A DNA stretch of 64,000 bases. Source: Nitrosopumilus sp. (GTDB taxonomy: Archaea; Thermoproteota; Nitrososphaeria; Nitrososphaerales; Nitrosopumilaceae). The stretch covers positions 1,984,001-2,048,000 of the forward strand of contig OZ250186.1 in assembly GCA_965238275.1 (NCBI GenBank), read 5' to 3'. A model generated the notes under the pieces. It was not told the origin of the DNA. It saw nothing but the letters and a program-made list of their open reading frames with translations, and made no database searches. Made by a program: the position numbers and the translations under genes. Positions 1-13,688 of the stretch are shown in pieces. Position 1 is the stretch's first letter. Every line of letters starts with the position of its first letter.

Positions 1-2
1 TA

Positions 3-1028
3 GACGACATAATACGCGACGGGGACAAGCTCCGCCATGCCACGCTGGCAGACGGGGAACAGTTCCGGTACATGCTGGAGCGGGCCAAGGTGTTTCTGAC
101 GCATTCGGGCCAGATGCCGCTGTTCTGCGATAACGCATCCCGGGCCTCCGATCCCGGAAACCGGTGCAAGCTGTACCTGAGACACGCGCTGCTCATGGCG
201 CTGATGCACAAAAAGGAAAACATCACGCAGGGAACGCTTGCCGCGTTCTTCGGGATAGACCAGTCCACCGTGTCCCGGTACTTTCCTGTGATGGACGCGA
301 TGCTGGCAGGAATACTTCCGACGGCAGACAATATATCCGAGGAGGTAGCTGCTGCCCCGACCAGGGAAGATTTCAAGAAGATCGTGCCCGGATCGGATGG
401 GGGCGAGATCTTCATAGACGGCACGCACTGCCCCATACAGCGCCCGTCCGTAAAGTCAGTCCGGCGCATGAAATACTCCGGCAAGAAGAAAAAGTTTACC
501 AACAATACCAACGTGTACACCAACCGGAACGGGGTGGTGATCGGCATATCAAAAAGCACCGTCGGGTCAGTCGGCGACATCACGCTGCTCAAGGAACGCC
601 CCATGCCGTTTGGAAAGTGGGAGAAGGCGATGCACGATCCGGACCTGCCAGAATCAGACAGGTGCCACCCATTCGTCGACCGCGGCTACCAGGGAATCGC
701 AGACCACCTGCCCGGCACCACGCCGGAGATCCCGCACAAGAAGACCAGGGACACGCCGCTGACGCCGGAGCAAAAAAAGCACAACCACAGGATCAACTCC
801 ACCCGGGTGTTGGTGGAGCACACGATAGGCAGGCTCAAGCGCTACGCGCGCCTCACCGACCCGTACGACGGCAACGCAGCCGGGTTCAACAGGGAGTTCA
901 ACGTGATCACAGGGCTGGTAAACCTGAACCTTTTGTGGGACTGCATGGAAAAGGGCCCGCCACCACCGGGGCAGTGGAAGACGTCAGTAGACTGGGACAG
1001 GGCCTGCTCCCAAGCTCCGGTCAAGTAG
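3..1028 (+). mobile_element. IS5-like (DDE_Tnp_4 plus HTH) transposase, probably 5'-partial at the window edge
   Basis: HTH (FGIDQSTVSR) and DDE motifs IDGTH..IQRP, YSGKKK, VDRGYQG, RVLVEHTIGRLK. The frame stays open upstream of the ATG at 72 to the window start. Confidence 0.9.
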
Positions 1029-1142
1029 AATTCAGGGCACGATGAAGTGCTGCAAGGCTGCGCACGTCATTTTGGATTTTGGGGTGAACGGACTTGCCAC
1101 ATGCCAGACACGAGTAGTTTTAGGCCGTATTTTTCCGGTTTT

Positions 1143-2039
1143 TTATGACCGAGTTGGCGAAATGGGCGGATTACGCATATCTTCTATTATGCGAAACCGT
1201 TTGACCCTGCGGATGGCGTGCTCCACATACACCCGTACCTTTGAGTGTTTTTTGTTGAATTCCTTCTGCTCGGGGGACAATTCTGCACCTTTTTGCTTCT
1301 TGTACGGCACTACGGCATCCCGGTCAGGAAACTCCTTGTTGATCCCCTGGTATCCGCCATCCAGGATCTCTCTGACCTTGATCCTTTTCTTGTCCTTGCT
1401 CCCGTCCTTGCGTGGAAGGTTGTCAGGGAATGTCGGGTGTTTCTTTTTGAATACTGCAAAGTCGTGGATCCTGCCCGGGGAATGCCGGGTCTTGTGAAGG
1501 ATGAGGCCGTCCGTGGCCGATGTGTACTGGACCTTGGACGTGTGCCTGTGTGCCTTGCCCGAGTAGTGGGACCGTTCCATGTCCTTGCGCCCGGGACGTT
1601 GTATCTGCTGCTCGGAGGCATCAATCAGGGCAGTCAGGCCCGGAATGATCTCCTCAAGATCGTCAAGCGTCTTGGTGGCCTTGATGCTGGCGTAGATCTT
1701 TGACGGAAGCGGAACGCACTGCCGGATCGACGGCTCCAGTGCCCCCATGCTGCGGGACACGCTAGCCTGGCCCACCTGAAACACCATGGCAAGAAGATCC
1801 TGTGTGGCGTATGTCCTGTAATAAAACAGGACCAGAAGAAACCTGTTTTTCAGATCCAGTTTCCACCTGCGTCCGGCACCAATGCCGCGCATCCTGCTTC
1901 TTTTGGAGAGTCGCTTTTGCTCTGCCCTGGGGTATTTTTTTGCCAGCCGCCCTGCCACCAAATTAAATTCGGAGACTGTCAGTCCAGTGCACCGGATGAA
2001 CAGTTTGGGCTTTTTTGCTAATTTGTCGTATAATGACAT
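1143..2039 (-). mobile_element. IS5-like (DDE_Tnp_4) transposase, C-terminally truncated
   Basis: Motifs IDASEQQIQRP, YSGKAHRH, LDGGYQG, RVYVEHAIRRVKRF. Likely start is MSLYDK at 2039. Similarity to the family ends just after RFRII, where the last helix seen in the neighbouring copy is missing. Confidence 0.85.
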
Positions 2040-2363
2040 GCTTTGACATGGGCAATCAGAATAAAACACGGCTGACGTATAGTTTTGATCATCGGGTAAG
2101 TTCGAATTGACATGCAATTCCGTGCAATCAACCGGATTTGTCCTGCAATGCGTCCAATCGTGTGGTTATACCCAATTACGGATTATGTCTATGGAGTCCA
2201 GGGCGTGATAGTGCGCACGTACAATGACAGCGAGTCCTGCTTCGTCTCGCTTGCCGTCCACAAGTTGGGCGCCGAGGACATCACAAGTGCGGCCGCAATT
2301 AGCACGAATTTTAGTAACTGCATAGTTTTTTGATCAAATGTTGAACTCCATGCCTACGCGCGT

Positions 2364-2433
2364 CTATGCAGTTTTTTGACGTGGAGCCAGGCCCTCGTGC
2401 AGGATCGTGCCAAGATCATCTCCCCTTGCCTTG
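2364..2433 (-). pseudogene. Displaced 3' end of the IS66 transposase
   Basis: Removing 2442-3689 and one TSD copy restores ...LMSIKQT-CKARGDDLGTILHEGLAPRQKTA*, which matches the IS66 C-terminal S..TCK..G pattern. Confidence 0.85.
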
Positions 2434-2441
2434 CATGTCTG

Positions 2442-2488
2442 GGACCTGTTAAATTTTGGTAATCAGATCAGTAAAAGTTACCAGAGCC
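2442..2488. repeat. 47-bp mini-MITE, copy 1
   Basis: GGACCTGTTAAATTTTGGTAATCAGATCAGTAAAAGTTACCAGAGCC. Its two ends form an imperfect inverted repeat (GGACCTGTTAAATTTT vs GGCTCTGGTAACTTTT, 12/16). Confidence 0.9.
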
Positions 2489-2513
2489 GCCAGCCAAGCG
2501 CCAACGTGGTGTT

Positions 2514-3209
2514 TTATTGCACGTTGCGCGCGACATGCAGTCCGCATTCTTTGACGCCACGTTCCCACCACCAACGGCCCGCGCGCGGATCTTCGCCGGG
2601 TTTCACAGCCCTAGTACATGGTTCGCATCCTATGCTTGTGTAACCCCTGTCCAACAACGCGTTGTACGGCACGCCGTGCGCCCTGACGTAGCCCCAAACG
2701 TCTTCAATACTCCAGTTTATTATCGGATTTATCTTCACTATCCCGCCGTGCGCCGAATCCAATTCGAACATTTCCATGTCGCGCCTGGCTTCGGTCTGAT
2801 CGCGCCGCAAGCCGGTGATCCACCCGTTGAGCGTGGCCAGTTTGGCATTCATCGGTTCGACTTTGCGGACATGGCAGCACGTTTTGCGTCCCTCGACGCT
2901 TTCGTAAAACAGGTGCGTGCCGCGCTCTTCGACCATGTGTTCGACGCGTTCGGGATCCGGTTTGAGCCTTTCGACTTTGATTCCATACCTGTCTTCCACG
3001 GCCGCGATTATGTCCAGTGTCTCTTTCGGCAGAAAACCTGTGTCTAGCGTGAAGAATTGGAATTCGGGGGTGATTTTCACCATCATGTCGATTACTGCCG
3101 CGTCTTCGGCGCCGAAGCTTGACGCCTTGCCGACTGACGGACAAAGGTTGTCAGACGCCCACCTGAGCGCTCCTTCGGCGGTAGTTATTTCAGAATTCAA
3201 CAGCCGCAC
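2514..3209 (-). CDS. cysH: Thioredoxin-dependent APS/PAPS reductase (4Fe-4S type); start uncertain
   Basis: Motifs SFGAED, LDTG, CC..RKVEP, WITGLRRDQ, SIGCEPCT, R.GRW and C-terminal ECGLH. The ORF is open to 3359, but CysH-like sequence begins near 3240. GTG at 3209 is the nearest in-frame start. Confidence 0.92.
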   Translation of the reverse strand: MRLLNSEITTAEGALRWASDNLCPSVGKASSFGAEDAAVIDMMVKITPEFQFFTLDTGFLPKETLDIIAAVEDRYGIKVERLKPDPERVEHMVEERGTHLFYESVEGRKTCCHVRKVEPMNAKLATLNGWITGLRRDQTEARRDMEMFELDSAHGGIVKINPIINWSIEDVWGYVRAHGVPYNALLDRGYTSIGCEPCTRAVKPGEDPRAGRWWWERGVKECGLHVARNVQ

Positions 3210-3228
3210 GTCGTCTGCGGTAAGCCGT

Positions 3229-3489
3229 TTACGTGCCCATTCGCTCTTCAATTTTTTCAAGCTCCTTAGTACATTCAGTGCTGTCGCTTTCCAAGGCTGA
3301 AATTTGTTCATCGTAGTTTTCAATATCATTTTTAAATTCTTTAATTTCGTTTTCGTCATTTGAATTGTCGATCCGATACTTTGTAGCTTTTCGAAGTTCG
3401 CGAAGCCTGTCTAATTCCCTATTGTTTGTTCTTATTCTTTCTTTAAATGCTTCTGCTGCACCTTCTGCACCGTAGTTTAATCCAGTCAT
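3229..3489 (-). CDS. Small AT-rich coiled-coil hypothetical protein
   Basis: E/K/N-rich heptad-like sequence with an AT-rich TATA-like stretch upstream (about 3505-3523). Confidence 0.55.
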   Translation of the reverse strand: MTGLNYGAEGAAEAFKERIRTNNRELDRLRELRKATKYRIDNSNDENEIKEFKNDIENYDEQISALESDSTECTKELEKIEERMGT

Positions 3490-3642
3490 GGTTGCATCAG
3501 AATACAAATAACATTATAATAAAGGTACTGAAAAGTGGCGGCGTGTTGCATAATCCTGCCTGCCATGTTACAATGAGCAGCACCATACACCATCATCCAG
3601 ACCGAAAAAGCTAAAGATCATGAGAATCAAGGCATCCTAGTG

Positions 3643-3689
3643 TGACCTGTTAAATTTTGGTGATCAGATCAGTAAAAGTTACCAGAGCC
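3643..3689. repeat. 47-bp mini-MITE, copy 2
   Basis: TGACCTGTTAAATTTTGGTGATCAGATCAGTAAAAGTTACCAGAGCC, with 2 mismatches against copy 1. Confidence 0.9.
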
Positions 3690-5044
3690 CATGTCTGCTT
3701 GATGCTCATCAGCGTGGCAATGGCATCTGCGCCCTTCTTTGACCTGCTCCCGTTGCTGTTCTTGCGCAGGATGACGCACGGCCTGATGGCCCGCTCTGCC
3801 CGGTTGTTGTGGTATTCGACGCCGTCTGTCTCCAGAAACGCAAACAGGTGATCTCCCTCCCGCACCAGCCTCTTGCGCATCCTGTTGCAGTGCCTGCAGT
3901 CGCGGTCCTTTTCGAGCCTGCCGATAAGTGACGCGATGCGACGATCCAGCCTCTTCTTTGCTGCCAGTGCTTCGGCACCTCCCGGAACGGCGCCGTCGAT
4001 GTGCGAGTCCCACAGTATCGTGCGCAGCGTCCTTGCGTGACGCTTGTAGTCATCGCCGGGATTCTTGTATTTCAGGGTGTCCTTGATGTCCCGGGCGTAA
4101 TGAAGGTGGCACTTTTGGTGTTCGGATCCGATGACGTTCCACGCGGCCCACGAGTCAGACGTGACGCATCCCGGGTAGTCCTTGCCGAGCATCTTTTTTG
4201 GAACCTTCGAGTTCCTGTGGCGGTGCACCTCGTAGATTACGGCGTACCTGGCTACAGCCACCCACAGCCAATAGTTTGTGCCGTCGACGCGCCAGGTCGT
4301 CTCGTCCCCGTTTATCGCAGGCGAGTTTCTTACCTCCTCCCTGATCTTCTCGTACAGCGGCCCGAGCTCCCGGGCCATCCTGCACACCATGCGGTTTATC
4401 GCAGATTCCGTGATTCTTGCCGAGTACATCATCATGACAATATTGCATATTCTGAGGTCTGACATGCCGTGCAGCCTGAGGATGACCATCATTATCATAA
4501 AGTTGATCCCGTACCTGGAGTTTGGCAGTGCCAGCGGAGTCCTGCCGGACACGATCCTCTTGCAGTTCCTGCAACGCCTTCTCTTTACTGTCACCTTGAT
4601 GTGCTTTAGTTCCGTCTTGGCAGCCTCCCTTACCACCTTTGTGTACGTGGACACGCATTCTGAGAGGTCGGAGCTGCCGCAGTTGCCGCACGTGTGCGGA
4701 TCTGCTGTCTCCTCTGCGTCTATTCTTTCAGGACGCGCAAGGCCCGTGCGTTTGTGGTCACTTGGCTTGCCCTTGCCCTTGCCCTTGCCCTTTGCGCGGC
4801 GCCGGGTACTGCCGGTCTTTTTGTCCGGTTTTGCGCCGATGCTCCTTGCAACGGCAGCCGATATGATGCCCTTTGCCTCCTGCAACTCTACCGTGAGATC
4901 CTGGATCTGTTTGAGGGCGGCAGCGTAAAGATCAGCGAGTTTGGCCATCTGCCGGTCTTTTTCGGCCATCTGCTCTACCATCACACCCACTTTTTCCTCC
5001 AGTTCTGCAATCCTTGACTCGGAATTATCATCAGACATATGCAA
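3650..5044 (-). pseudogene. IS66 transposase (TnpC-like), native C-terminus replaced by insert-derived sequence
   Basis: N-terminal coiled coil, Zn finger (CGNC..CRNC), GDETTW, YWLWV, TSD, QKCHLH and NNRAERAIRP.V..RK.S.GSRS..GA motifs. The last 13 aa are altered by or read from the 47-bp repeat. Confidence 0.92.
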
Positions 5045-5266
5045 ACCGTGGGCAGCAATGATCTAAAAATTAGGACGGAGAGAAAAACTCGATCAAGTGA
5101 TTAAAAATAGTTTTAAAAAATTAGACAGACGCGGATTTTCTGATTGTAGATATGGAGTTCAACATTTGATCAAAAAACTACACAGATACGAATTTTATTA
5201 TATTTCACAGTACTCATGTATATAATAGATTTTTAACTGTCTATTGACTCATGAACATAAGTTAGC

Positions 5267-11695: not shown

Positions 11696-11831
11696 GCATG
11701 ACATCAAACATTGCAGATTAAAAAGATTGATTTGCTCCAGCCGGCCACACAGCCTGCCGTGCAGATGACCGGACAATCCGGGTTCTCCTGCATCATCGGT
11801 TGGTGACACAAAATCAGGATCTTCTCCAGAT

Positions 11832-12008
11832 TCACTCGTCTGGTCTGCGCACCATTATGTCATCGCCGGAAATGACAAACTTTAGTTTGTCGGGATTGCC
11901 AAGCATTTCAAGTATCGGTTTTGGTATGTAGCTGTAGTTTGTCAGACGCTTCTCGTTTTTGATCACAGAAACGGTAAATTCCTTGGCGTCTTTGGCCCAC
12001 TGGGTCAT
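11832..12008 (-). CDS. 58-aa AbrB-like protein inside the IS6 element, divergent from the transposase (not in the ORF track)
   Basis: MTQWAKDAKEFTVSVIKNEKRLTNYSYIPKPILEMLGNPDKLKFVISGDDIMVRRPDE. IPK.I...LG....L.F...G..I.V resembles the swapped-hairpin AbrB pattern. Confidence 0.75.
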   Translation of the reverse strand: MTQWAKDAKEFTVSVIKNEKRLTNYSYIPKPILEMLGNPDKLKFVISGDDIMVRRPDE

Positions 12009-12079
12009 GAATTTTTTTTAGCTGCCTGTTATTTAAGACTGGTAGAAAGATCTATGTAATAATACCAATTGGTTTATTT

Positions 12080-13225
12080 ATGAACAGGGCAAAACGCGCC
12101 AAAACGGCGGCAAGGCAGGGACAGGTGATCAGCAACGACCCAAAGCAGGTGAGGATGACAAGTCTCAGACGATGGAATGTGGCATCGCAGTCTATTCCAG
12201 GACTGTGGTATCTGGTGATTCTTGGCTCTGCCGGGTTTGTATGCGCGTGCCAGCATTACGTCAATTGTGACGGCCTGTGCAAGCACGTGCGGGCAGTGGA
12301 CGTGTTGCTTGGCCGGATGTGGGACCGGTGCAGGAACCAAAATACAATTGTCATTAGCATGCCTCAGACTGCATGCCACCATTGCAAGTCGACTGTGTTT
12401 GCACGCAACGGGCACCGACACAACGCGTACGGGCCGATCCGGCGGTACCGGTGTAAGCCGTGCGGCCGGACATTCTCCGGACGGCCGGGCTTCAAGAAGC
12501 GCCATGCCGGCCCAGAGGCGATATCCCGGGCACTCAGGGAGGCAGCGTACGGGCTGTCCTGCGCTGCGGTGCAGGCAGTGATGGCACAGGACGGAACAAC
12601 CGTGCATTCAAGCACGATATACAGGTGGACTGCGCATTATTCGACGCTGATGGATGAATATTCAAGGCGGCTGCAGCCGCGCACGGGCTACAAGTGGCAC
12701 TGTGACGAGATACATTTCAAGGTTCGCGCGCAGGCGCGGTGGCTTTTTGCCGTCATGGACGGCGCCAGCAGGTTCATACTGTCCCATGACGTGTCTGAGA
12801 CAAAACTCAACTACAGACCCGCCCCCCTGTTTGCAGCCGCAAGGAATCTGGCCGGAACCACCCCGTGGGTGCTGGTAACAGACGGCCTGCAGGCGTTTTG
12901 TCCTGCCGCCCGCAGGGCGTTTTGGAGACGCAACGGCTTCAGGCTGATCCACGTCCGGGAGATTCACCTGAAGAACCGCTTCAGTCATAACAACAAGCAC
13001 GAGAGGCTTAACGGTGAATTCAAGGATCGCATCAAGACCGCCCGCGAGTTCGGGACAGAAAGTCCCGCGCTTGTGCGGCTGATGATCGTCCACCACAACT
13101 TTTTCCGCCCCCATGGCGGCATTGGCAAAATTACACCCGCAGAGGCCGCAGGGATCGTCATATCTGGAACGGACAAGCAGATCACCCTCATCAGTAATGC
13201 AGCAGCTGCTGCAGCAGCAGCGTAG
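12080..13225 (+). CDS. IS6-family DDE transposase with N-terminal SWIM and Zn-ribbon domains
   Basis: CxC..CKH (SWIM), CHHC..CKPC, TIYRW, WHCDE, VTDGL, NN.HERLNG and TPAEAAGI motifs. Confidence 0.9.
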   Translation: MNRAKRAKTAARQGQVISNDPKQVRMTSLRRWNVASQSIPGLWYLVILGSAGFVCACQHYVNCDGLCKHVRAVDVLLGRMWDRCRNQNTIVISMPQTACHHCKSTVFARNGHRHNAYGPIRRYRCKPCGRTFSGRPGFKKRHAGPEAISRALREAAYGLSCAAVQAVMAQDGTTVHSSTIYRWTAHYSTLMDEYSRRLQPRTGYKWHCDEIHFKVRAQARWLFAVMDGASRFILSHDVSETKLNYRPAPLFAAARNLAGTTPWVLVTDGLQAFCPAARRAFWRRNGFRLIHVREIHLKNRFSHNNKHERLNGEFKDRIKTAREFGTESPALVRLMIVHHNFFRPHGGIGKITPAEAAGIVISGTDKQITLISNAAAAAAAA

Positions 13226-13270
13226 TCGCAGCAGCAGCAGTAGCAACGGCAGCTGTAGCAACGGCAGCGA
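13198..13270. repeat. Imperfect (GCA)n trinucleotide tract
   Basis: gcagcagctgctgcagcagcagcg...gcagcagcagcagtagca, giving the poly-Ala tail of the transposase. A similar tract lies at about 13611-13645. Confidence 0.7.
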
Positions 13271-13688
13271 CACACGTAGCCCAGACTGGCCTTGGCGTGA
13301 TGGATGTCCCATCAATGCATGTCATGGCAATGACTGGGATTATCCATCACAACTGGCAGATTCTCCCTAGAGGAATTATGATTTAATGGGGAATGGCATA
13401 ACGGTGCGTAAAACAGCAAGTAAATCTGGAGAAGATCCTGAATTTGTGCCACCAACCGATGATGCAGGAGAACCGACAATCCGTATAACTTATAGCATTT
13501 GATGTGAATATGGATACAATGACATACGACGGCAAGCCCGGTTTACCGGCGGTCTGGATAGCAGGGATTCAGATGATCCCCCTGCAAGTCGCGGATGGGA
13601 TGTGCAATGATGCAGCGGCAGCAGCAGCAGCGGCAGCAGCAGCGGCCAAGGCAGGTCCTGCCGGCGGCAGCAGACCAGGTGGGCGCGT

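What the first reader, a model, noticed from the sequence alone, without database searches (positions are those of the whole stretch)
2434..3697. Gene mobilisation by a pair of 47-bp mini-elements: a transposase-free composite transposon carrying cysH
Seen: a 1248-bp segment bounded by an exact 8-bp duplication (CATGTCTG) splits the IS66 transposase, and removing it restores the frame and the C-terminal motif. Both ends are the same 47-bp unit in direct orientation (2 mismatches). Each unit is two facing 16-bp imperfect TIRs (GGACCTG.../GGCTCTG...) around a 15-bp spacer. No transposase lies inside. Known: GG..CTG termini with 8-bp TSDs fit the IS6 or IS1595 families. TSD-element-cargo-element-TSD in direct repeat is the product of IS26-type cointegration of a circular donor. 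Inference: a near-minimal MITE, activated in trans, captured and moved a metabolic gene, possibly through a roughly 1.2-kb circle holding one 47-mer. MITE-flanked composites that I know of use much longer units, so this may be an undescribed minimal gene-capture system in archaea.
Basis: partly seen in the sequence, partly recalled or inferred. Interest (0 to 1): 0.88.

Follow-up and report, generated by a model that had tools for sequence, protein, structure and literature searches.

The report
Transposase-free cargo transposon carrying cysH
A 1.25-kb piece of DNA with no transposase of its own, carrying a spare sulfate-assimilation gene and capped at each end by the same 47-base palindromic unit, has jumped into another mobile element in an ammonia-oxidising archaeon, and is one of several such gene-carrying hitchhikers in that genome.

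Summary
A 1248-bp segment (window 2442-3689) splits an IS66 transposase gene. It is flanked by an exact 8-bp duplication, and 8 of 8 other IS66 copies are uninterrupted at that point. Contigs from 4 of 4 public runs laid reach 30 nt past the junctions. Its ends are two 47-bp palindromic units in direct orientation (2 differences). The cargo is an intact APS/PAPS reductase plus a coiled-coil ORF, with no transposase.

The unit is two facing 23-nt terminal repeats with the IS6/IS26 signature (GG, T6-G7-T8). The genome holds 94 such ends. Six pairs of them, 0.95-4.8 kb apart, bracket cargo with 8-bp duplications.

The 47-mer is not shown to move alone: 0 of 31 short pairs have a duplication. Three of the six cargo elements have inverted, not direct, ends. 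So the IS26-type circle route is possible but not shown. No autonomous partner lies in this genome. The best lead is a 536-aa IS6-related protein in relatives whose gene ends inside a copy of the repeat.

Verdict: a real non-autonomous cargo transposon. It is a new variant of a known kind (mobile insertion cassette, or MITE-based pseudo-compound transposon).

The parts
2311..5192 (-). IS66-family element that received the insertion. Terminal inverted repeats at 2311-2357 and 5146-5192.
   Evidence: arms of 47 nt, 87% complementary. DDE_Tnp_IS66 at 2.4e-36; NF033517 at 222 bits against a cut-off of 180; 8 other copies in the genome.
2367..2441 (-). Severed last 25 codons of the IS66 transposase.
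   Evidence: residues 476-500 of an intact copy align here at 96% identity.
2434..2441 (.). Target-site duplication, left copy (CATGTCTG).
2442..2488 (+). Left 47-bp palindromic unit. Its outer 23-nt repeat starts GGACCTGTTAAATTTTGGTAATC; an inner, inverted 23-nt repeat follows.
2514..3359 (-). Cargo gene: assimilatory APS/PAPS reductase (cysH), longest ORF 281 aa. Homologues align from about residue 44, so the true start is probably internal.
   Evidence: PAPS_reduct at 1.3e-47. NF002537 at 268 bits against a cut-off of 154; TIGR02055 at 253 bits against 235; alignments start at residues 36-48 of the query.
3229..3507 (-). Cargo ORF of 92 aa, coiled-coil, AT-rich (GC 0.37). It overlaps the 5' end of the cysH frame. 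The same pair is kept in a relative (G106).
3546..3634 (.). 89-bp non-coding stretch of the cargo, repeated at 93% identity at genome 1277068-1277156, upstream of an unrelated ORF.
3643..3689 (+). Right 47-bp palindromic unit, in direct orientation to the left one. Its inner terminus is TG instead of GG.
3690..3697 (.). Target-site duplication, right copy (CATGTCTG).
3692..5038 (-). N-terminal 477 codons of the interrupted IS66 transposase. The ORF as it stands (3650-5044) runs into the unit and stops there.

Best explanation
The 1248-bp segment is a non-autonomous cargo transposon. It is a mobile insertion cassette whose two extremities are outward-facing 23-nt terminal repeats of the IS6/IS26 type.

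Shown:
- It entered the 3' end of an IS66 transposase gene as one piece, with an 8-bp staggered target cut. That removed the last 25 codons of the gene.
- It added a second, divergent APS/PAPS reductase gene plus a coiled-coil ORF to the genome.
- It encodes no transposase.
- It is one of six elements in this genome that share the same termini and an 8-bp duplication and carry unrelated cargo.

Inferred:
- A DDE transposase made elsewhere bound the outermost repeat at each end and moved everything between them.
- That enzyme is IS6-related. The best candidate is a 536-543-aa PF13610 protein found intact only in related genomes.
- The two near-identical 47-bp units in direct orientation come from a duplication of one unit when the cassette was first built. 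That step may have been an IS26-like copy-in event.

The confidence given is for this whole statement, including two-ended insertion as the last move. That the segment is a real trans-mobilised cargo element with IS6-type ends I hold at about 0.9.
For: Insertion and duplication: 8 of 8 other IS66 copies are empty at the site, and the reading frame is continuous in intact copies.

Family in this genome:
- The 19-nt repeat core with up to 4 mismatches occurs 94 times, against 0-6 for five shuffled patterns.
- Among 4371 pairs of ends, exactly five have perfectly complementary 8-nt flanks (0.07 expected). These are c2-c6, each 1.2-4.8 kb apart. A sixth pair (c1, 951 bp) has 7 of 8.
- Their cargo differs: HEPN plus nucleotidyltransferase, an ABC ATPase, a TnpB-like gene plus a UbiE methyltransferase, and cysH.

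Family elsewhere:
- One more such element with an exact duplication lies in another species (1 of 189 end pairs in fetched loci).
- The repeat pattern is found in 28 of 151 genomes of the genus, including this one, with 0-1 control hits.
- Exact-pattern hits in 185,579 species genomes give 31 stretches: 24 labelled Nitrosopumilus, 2 Cenarchaeum, 5 on two other MAG labels.

IS6 signature: GG ends, T6-G7-T8 and an 8-bp duplication match the literature passages.

Candidate enzyme:
- Its stop codon overlaps a repeat copy, and a second copy lies 120-160 bp beyond, in 6 of 8 loci where the 3' end could be read.
- A C-terminal remnant lies in this genome between a 47-bp unit and a repeat module.
- It hits 7 of 14 repeat-rich genomes against 4 of 136 others.

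Assembly: supported in 4 of 4 runs, with cassette depth equal to that of the neighbouring unique sequence.
Against: - No intact transposase whose own element has these termini was found in this genome. The 1694-bp IS6-like IS here has repeats alike only in GGTTCT and makes 9-bp duplications in 3 of 4 copies. The IS5-like IS that does make 8-bp duplications has different ends.
- The 536-aa candidate has no matching repeat on its 5' side in any locus seen. Its NCBIfam IS6 score is below the cut-off (37 against 125 bits), though PF13610 passes (34 against 27).
- Simple two-ended insertion does not by itself explain why both ends are complete palindromic units that are near-identical direct copies.
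- It also does not explain why no short element of the family has a duplication.
- The co-occurrence counts are among kin and are not independent.
Confidence: 0.55

Rival explanations
1. IS26-type route. A circle of about 1201 bp holding the cargo and one 47-bp unit was fused into the IS66 gene. This happened either by replicative copy-in, which duplicated the unit and 8 bp of target, or by a conservative or homologous reaction with a unit already sitting there. The result is unit-cargo-unit in direct repeat.
For: - The ends have the IS6/IS26 signature and the duplication is 8 bp.
- IS6 pseudo-compound transposons are 'invariably' direct repeats because of the cointegrate mechanism (passage of PMC7986276).
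- The two units differ at 2 of 47 positions here and 3 of 47 in element c3. The closest of 102 non-sister comparisons differs at 6, and flipping one unit gives 12-15 differences.
- A third sister pair (46 of 47) flanks 2.36 kb of cargo in another species.
- 0 of 31 short elements have their own duplication. That is what an element that only makes cointegrates would leave.
- The only transposase candidates linked to the repeat are PF13610 proteins.
Against: - Three of the six duplication-flanked elements have inverted ends: c4 with 199-bp arms at 99.5%, c5 with 64 bp, c2 with 22-25 bp. Intermolecular copy-in of a one-unit circle cannot give these.
- No long-range complementary flank pairs were found that would mark intramolecular replicative events. 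All five exact pairs are local.
- e982, one of the two inverted-arm elements without a duplication, lacks the inversion signature. I compared its flanks by eye.
- Two transposase-binding ends only 1 bp apart on a 47-bp rod are hard to bring together (inference).
- Archaeal IS6-like elements may not share the IS26 mechanism (abstract and passages of PMC6807381).
Confidence: 0.3
2. A classical composite. Two independent insertions of a free 47-bp MITE happened to flank the cysH module at its original locus, and the outer ends then moved the whole piece.
For: The same two-gene module exists without units in a related genome (76% identity over 966 nt). So the cargo predates the units. MITE-flanked composites are known in bacteria (discussion passage of PMC6382973).
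Against: No solo 47-mer has a duplication, so independent insertion of the unit is not documented. Two independent units would be about as different as other family members (median 11 differences), not 2-3. They would be in the same orientation only half of the time, yet three sister pairs are all direct.
Confidence: 0.08
3. Single-strand (IS200/IS605-type, PATE or REP-like) or site-specific recombinase element. The hairpin-forming units at both ends in direct orientation would be the recognition structures.
For: Both ends are hairpin-capable palindromes in the same orientation. A TnpB-like gene lies in one relative, c2.
Against: An exact 8-bp target duplication is proven by empty sites, and those families do not make one (recalled). 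No Y1 transposase is in the genome. The flanking 8-mers of the six elements share no common target word.
Confidence: 0.02
4. Assembly artefact that joins a cysH locus to an IS66 copy through short repeats.
For: The genome is 16.6% repeats of 600 bp or more. Contigs extend only 30 nt into IS66 on each side.
Against: The same junction words are present in 4 of 4 runs from 4 studies, at the depth of the adjacent unique sequence. One contig covers 2412-3719. A diverged strain (9 substitutions and a 9-nt deletion in the cassette) has the cassette at the same junctions. The duplication is exact and the frame is restored precisely.
Confidence: 0.01

Closest known systems
IS26/IS6-family pseudo-compound transposons and translocatable units
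   Same: Termini begin GG with G at position 7 flanked by T. Some family members share the first nine bases with the IS26 repeat or with the family consensus. The target duplication is 8 bp. Direct-repeat copies of the element bracket the cargo.
   Different: The repeated module is a 47-bp repeat-repeat palindrome with no gene, not an 820-bp IS with its transposase. The repeats are 23 nt long and lack G10, as reported for archaeal members. Half of the sister elements have inverted ends. Neither a cointegrate nor a circle has been shown.
Mobile insertion cassettes (MICs, e.g. MIC231 of the Bacillus cereus group)
   Same: Terminal repeats of an IS family bracket passenger genes. There is no transposase, mobilisation is in trans, and a target duplication is made. 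The definition is recalled; the term and its use were seen only in search listings and abstracts.
   Different: Here each end is a complete palindromic mini-element rather than a single repeat. The host is an archaeon and the termini are of IS6 type.
MITE-flanked composite structures in Acinetobacter (439-bp MITE around class 1 integrons; MITE-297 of 502 bp around a 76-kb region)
   Same: Two copies of a non-autonomous element flank cargo 'comparable to a composite transposon' (discussion passage of PMC6382973).
   Different: Those units are about ten times longer. Here the units are 47 bp, and family relatives use 64-202-bp modules.
IS6-family MITEs listed in ISfinder
   Same: Non-autonomous derivatives made of both IS ends.
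   Different: The review reports only two, of 227 and 336 bp, and no cargo-carrying forms (passage of PMC7986276).

Membership tests
IS6/IS26-family derivative (by its ends) | Terminal repeats start with GG and have G at position 7 flanked by T. | tested here: met
   The outer ends of the cassette are GGACCTGT... and GGCTCTGG... Family variants are GGTTCTGTT and GGCACTGTT. The criterion comes from passages of PMC8477213 and PMC6807381.
IS6/IS26-family derivative (by its ends) | 8-bp target-site duplication. | tested here: met
   The duplication is exactly 8 bp here and in c2, and 8 bp plus 1-2 ambiguous bases in c3-c5. It is confirmed by empty sites.
IS6/IS26-family derivative (by its ends) | Moved by an IS6-family DDE transposase (H-HTH plus DDE). 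| tested here: inconclusive
   There is none in the cassette. Genome copies of an IS6-like IS have other repeats and a 9-bp duplication. The 536-aa PF13610 protein abuts repeat copies in relatives, but it is below the NCBIfam IS6 cut-off and has no 5' repeat.
IS6/IS26-family derivative (by its ends) | Transposes only through cointegrates, giving direct repeats of the element. | not testable with these tools
   Direct sister units are seen in c6, c3 and a G006 locus. Inverted-end relatives with a duplication are c2, c4 and c5. Only contigs, not raw reads, were available.
Mobile insertion cassette (MIC) | IS-type terminal inverted repeats around passenger genes, no transposase, and a target duplication. 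| tested here: met
MITE (the 47-bp unit as a free mobile element) | Solo copies flanked by their own target duplication. | tested here: not met
   0 of 31 short repeat pairs have 7 or more of 8 matching flanks. The distribution of matches looks like chance.
IS1595 family | An IS1595-type DDE transposase is present to act in trans. | tested here: not met
   PF12762 gives no match in the 99.9%-complete genome, while the control genomes ring.
IS200/IS605-derived PATE or REP-RAYT | No target duplication, and a Y1 (HUH) transposase. | tested here: not met
   An exact 8-bp duplication is present. PF01797 is absent from the genome.
Assimilatory APS/PAPS reductase (CysH) | Full-length match above the curated cut-offs. 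| tested here: met
   NF002537 scores 267.7 bits against a cut-off of 154. TIGR02055 scores 253.2 against 235.3. The Cys motifs were read by eye in the translation; their meaning is recalled.

The most novel reading that the evidence does not exclude
A 47-bp palindrome made of nothing but two abutting IS6-type terminal repeats acts as a complete 'IS module' for an IS26-like copy-in or translocatable-unit cycle in archaea. Small circles carrying one unit plus any neighbouring gene are fused into new sites by a transposase supplied in trans, which duplicates the unit each time. This would be the smallest known gene-capturing element. It would also be the first evidence that archaeal IS6-like enzymes work through cointegrates. 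Cruciform extrusion of the palindrome could bring the two termini together.
Probability: 0.25. Interest if true: 0.8.

Novelty: new variant of a known kind. Interest (0 to 1): 0.6.

Why it matters
It shows that gene shuffling in these IS-laden Nitrosopumilus genomes is not limited to autonomous ISs. Repeats of 600 bp or more make up 16.6% of this genome.

A family of transposase-less elements with IS6-type ends carries metabolic, defence-type and transport genes: cysH, HEPN-nucleotidyltransferase, an ABC ATPase and methyltransferases. These elements insert with clean 8-bp duplications in at least two species.

The thaumarchaeal mobilome survey that I searched by terms (PMC6563490) has no occurrence of MITE, cargo, composite transposon or PAPS. 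So this class seems unrecorded for the group.

The direct, near-identical 47-bp units offer a tractable substrate for one open question: do archaeal IS6-like transposases use the IS26 cointegrate mechanism? How small a functional 'IS' can be could be tested with the same substrate.

Tried and rejected
Partner IS in this genome. I clustered all repeats of 600 bp or more (258 loci, 54 families) and read their termini. None has the GGYTCTGKTAAATT end.
- F24/F37 (GGCGTTGTCCA...) is about 70% alike by my own hand alignment, but F37 makes 9-bp duplications.
- The 1355-bp IS5-like element makes 8-bp duplications but ends AACTCTGTTTCC.
- The 1694-bp IS6-like IS makes 9-bp duplications.
- PF12762, PF01610 and PF01797 gave no match in the genome.

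Partner IS in relatives.
- The repeated repeat copies in G017 are 77-bp MITEs.
- The 449-453-aa and 372-376-aa IS6-like genes in G155, G069 and G162 have no matching ends.
- The 536-aa gene has repeats only on its 3' side.
- A by-eye resemblance of L093 sequence to its C-terminus was not borne out by tblastn.

Replicative-inversion signature. It was not found for e982 (by eye, from the flanks). No long-range complementary flanks were found.

Cassette elsewhere. A 21-nt unit-cargo junction word found nothing in genome contigs, where the own genome may be left out. The cassette DNA matches only G106 beyond the cysH coding similarity.

Reads.
- No circle ('goes back') joint was listed.
- The 'skips 1256' joint is at 3.4-5.8 times the cassette depth. 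I attribute it to the other IS66 copies, not to excision.
- Only Logan contigs could be laid, so rare forms cannot appear.
- No RNA holder was listed.

Supplementary files of papers were not opened. Table S1 of PMC6563490 and the supplements of PMC6807381 could bear on IS families and repeat alignments.
Full report
**What is there**

The window lies at 1,984,001-2,048,000 of a single-contig genome of 2.217 Mb, 52.7% GC.

Between window 2311 and 5192 lies an IS66-family element with 47-nt terminal inverted repeats. Its transposase gene runs on the minus strand.

That gene is split by a 1248-bp segment (2442-3689). CATGTCTG lies on both sides, at 2434-2441 and 3690-3697. The two ends of the segment are 47-nt copies in direct orientation that differ at 2 positions. 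The pattern occurs nowhere else in the window and in 0 of 100 shuffles.

**The insertion is real**

- All 8 other IS66 copies in the genome are continuous across the point, and both 8-mers map to a single 8-mer in them.
- Four intact transposases (477-500 aa) align residues 1-477 to window 5038-3692 and residues 476-500 to window 2441-2367. So 1256 bp were added and 8 bp duplicated.
- In contigs of four public runs from four studies, the cassette is joined to IS66 sequence on both sides. One contig covers 2412-3719. Only 30 nt lie beyond each junction, one short of the tool's 31-nt bridging rule. The depth equals that of the neighbouring unique DNA.
- A diverged strain (9 substitutions and a 9-nt deletion in the cassette) has the same junctions.
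- The 'skips 1256' joint has 3.4-5.8 times the cassette depth. I attribute it to the other IS66 copies.

**Cargo**

- The 281-aa ORF is a full-length assimilatory APS/PAPS reductase: PAPS_reduct at 1.3e-47; NF002537 at 268 bits against a cut-off of 154; TIGR02055 at 253 against 235.
- It is a second copy. The housekeeping gene lies at genome 658230-658958 (60% identity). Of 101 genomes of the genus searched, this one included, 94 have a match.
- All hits outside this genome are 45-67% identical, except one of 74% in G106.
- There, the coiled-coil ORF plus cysH module is conserved at 76% over 966 nt, with the same overlapping frames but without any unit.
- In the large protein collection, the nearest clusters are 73-83% identical and unnamed. 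Named ones (Nitrosopumilaceae, Nitrosopumilus, Cenarchaeum) are 61-70% identical.
- The cargo is therefore a pre-existing thaumarchaeal accessory module, not a copy of the resident gene. No transposase domain is in the cassette.

**What the 47-mer is**

Each unit is an imperfect palindrome: two 23-nt repeats facing each other around one base. The half-unit is a repeat family.

- The 19-nt core with up to 4 mismatches occurs 94 times in the genome, against 0-6 for five shuffled patterns.
- The 23-nt IUPAC pattern with up to 3 mismatches occurs 59 times, with 0 control hits.
- Besides 47-bp units, there are modules of about 65, 121 and 200 bp that begin and end with the repeat.
- The termini read GG(C/T)(T/A)CTG(G/T)T. 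Some copies begin GGTTCTGTT or GGCACTGTT.
- Passages that I read give the IS6/IS26 consensus as GGTTCTGTTGCAAA and the IS26 repeat as GGCACTGTTGCAAA, with GG and G7 invariant and flanking T conserved. Archaeal members have longer repeats that lack G10, and mostly 8-bp duplications (PMC6807381, PMC8477213).

**A family of cargo elements**

I compared the 8 nt outside every repeat end with every other (94 ends, 4371 pairs). Exactly five pairs are perfectly complementary (0.07 expected). A sixth has 7 of 8. All six are local pairs.

| Element | Genome coordinates | Length | Duplication |
|---|---|---|---|
| c1 | 672574-673524 | 951 bp | 7 of 8 |
| c2 | 708592-713380 | 4789 bp | GTAATTTT |
| c3 | 1110135-1113604 | 3470 bp | AGTCCGGC |
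| c4 | 1948325-1953068 | 4744 bp | TGATTTGG |
| c5 (nested in c4) | 1948532-1951945 | 3414 bp | CCCAAGGA |
| c6 (the finding) | window 2442-3689 | 1248 bp | CATGTCTG |

- Their cargo is unrelated: HEPN plus nucleotidyltransferase with a nested IS (c3); an ABC ATPase (c5); a TnpB-like gene and a UbiE-type methyltransferase (c2). A GNAT gene sits in a 121-bp-armed element without a duplication.
- None carries a transposase that the elements share.
- In another species, a 1237-bp element with 47-bp units at both ends has the exact duplication GTCTAGCA. It is 1 of 189 end pairs tested in fetched loci.
- The repeat occurs in 28 of 151 genomes of the genus, including this one. It is most frequent in the larger genomes.
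- Outside the genus, the exact pattern was found only in Cenarchaeum and in two other MAG labels.

**Mechanism: what is shown and what is not**

Shown: a piece bounded by two outward-facing repeats entered with an 8-bp staggered cut. This happened six times in this genome with different cargo.

- The two units of c6 (2 differences) and of c3 (3 differences) are closer than any of 102 non-sister comparisons (minimum 6, median 11). They are clearly direct, because flipping one gives 12-15 differences.
- A third sister pair (46 of 47) flanks 2.36 kb in G006.
- IS6 pseudo-compound transposons are 'invariably' direct repeats (passage of PMC7986276).
- None of 31 short repeat pairs (21 units of 47 bp, 8 modules of 200-202 bp, 2 others) has 7 or more of 8 matching flanks. 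An element that never inserts alone would leave this pattern.

Against it:
- c2, c4 and c5 have inverted ends (c4: 199 bp at 99.5%) together with direct duplications. Fusion of a one-unit circle cannot give that.
- No long-range complementary flanks mark replicative rearrangements.
- No circle joint was seen, though only contigs could be laid.

The one statement that covers all six elements is two-ended insertion of whatever lies between two outward repeats. How sister units arose remains open. I put the IS26-type route at about 0.3.

A detail worth noting: 3 of the 5 differences between sister units in c6 and c3 fall in the terminal dinucleotide of an inner end (TG for GG; AT for CC). All four outer termini are intact. 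This is reminiscent of weakened inside ends in compound transposons (recalled).

**The enzyme**

- The genome has no IS1595, ISL3 or Y1 transposase.
- Its IS6-like IS (1694 bp, one copy at window 11781-13474) has a 381-aa transposase. Its best NCBIfam match is IS6 (84 bits, below the 125-bit cut-off). Its repeats share only GGTTCT with the family, and 3 of 4 copies have 9-bp duplications.
- In relatives, a 536-543-aa protein with a PF13610 domain (34 bits against a cut-off of 27) ends inside a repeat copy. A second copy lies 120-160 bp beyond. This holds in 6 of 8 loci where the 3' end could be read.
- This genome keeps a C-terminal remnant of it between a 47-bp unit and a repeat module (genome 92032-92936).
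- The protein family is tiny: 26 proteins at E up to 1e-5 in the collection.
- It hits 7 of 14 repeat-rich genomes and 4 of 136 others, though kin are not independent.
- No matching repeat lies 5' of the gene anywhere, so the autonomous element is not defined.

**Comparison and novelty**

- Transposase-less cassettes with IS ends (MICs) and MITE-flanked composites are known in bacteria. I saw search listings and abstracts for MICs, and a discussion passage of PMC6382973 on 439-bp and 502-bp MITEs.
- The IS6 review lists only two MITEs, of 227 and 336 bp.
- A term search of the thaumarchaeal mobilome paper found no MITE, cargo, composite transposon or PAPS.
- A 2026 archaeal IS survey mentions MITEs once, in its background.
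- A 2024 review of prokaryotic MITEs lists no thaumarchaeal MITEs in the passages shown.
- I therefore class this as a new variant of a known kind. The new features are IS6-type ends, 47-bp repeat-repeat units as direct repeats, an archaeal host, and several cargo types.

The claim that such elements are not in print rests only on searches and on the term look-ups named above.

Noticed in passing
window 11781-13474: A 1694-bp IS with 56-nt inverted repeats (GGTTCTCCTGCATC...) and a 381-aa transposase. The protein has an N-terminal zinc-binding region and its best NCBIfam match is IS6 (84 bits, below the cut-off). There are four full copies in the genome, three with 9-bp duplications.
   Followed up: yes
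whole genome (G000): Extreme load of mobile DNA: 258 repeat loci of 600 bp or more in 54 families, 367 kb or 16.6% of the genome. Window 1-2117 alone holds parts of two DDE_Tnp_4 (IS5-like) elements.
   Followed up: partly
genome 1096168-1097522 beside unit 1097530-1097576; genome 1121202-1122926 beside unit 1122936-1122982; L035 and L037 in relatives: Autonomous ISs repeatedly sit within 8-10 bp of a palindromic unit, or about 350 bp from a repeat module. Examples are the IS5-like and IS66 elements here, and the 450-aa IS6-like genes in G155 and G069. This may reflect a target preference for the hairpin-forming units.
   Followed up: no
window 3643-3644 and genome 1113558-1113559: In both sister-unit composites, one inner terminus has lost the terminal dinucleotide (TG for GG; AT for CC), while all four outer termini are intact. 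That accounts for 3 of the 5 differences between sister units.
   Followed up: partly
window 3229-3359 and L025 1127-1400: The coiled-coil ORF ends in a stop that overlaps the cysH frame. The same arrangement is kept at 76% identity in G106. The N-terminal 44 residues of the long cysH ORF have no counterpart in housekeeping homologues. This could be translational coupling or a frameshift fusion.
   Followed up: no
window 3546-3634 and genome 1277068-1277156: An 89-bp non-coding stretch of the cargo recurs at 93% identity upstream of an unrelated 366-aa ORF. A 102-nt match (84%) lies in G160.
   Followed up: partly
genome 1110867-1110962 and at least 11 other places: A repeat of about 90-96 bp at 96-100% identity in a dozen loci. 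One copy lies between the HEPN and nucleotidyltransferase genes of element c3, and one inside element 1471786-1474765. Its nature is unknown.
   Followed up: no
L043 3109-3377 (G162), L042 3112-3256 (G155), L094 4615-4760: Downstream of the 536-aa PF13610 gene, the repeat occurs two or three times in tandem, in the same orientation, at about 123-bp spacing. A short direct repeat (GGTCT..AAA) lies both at the 5' border of the conserved region and after the first repeat copy.
   Followed up: partly
L063, L070, L079, L086 and L076 (genome contigs): Exact copies of the 23-nt repeat lie on one contig of a MAG labelled only 'bacterium' (4 stretches) and on a contig of a 'Candidatus Poribacteria' MAG (1 stretch). 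This is either mis-binned archaeal DNA or transfer between co-resident symbionts.
   Followed up: no
genome 982023-983173 and 1471786-1474765: Two further cargo-bearing structures have long inverted arms made of family modules (202 bp at 97%; 113 bp at 94%) but no target duplication.
   Followed up: partly
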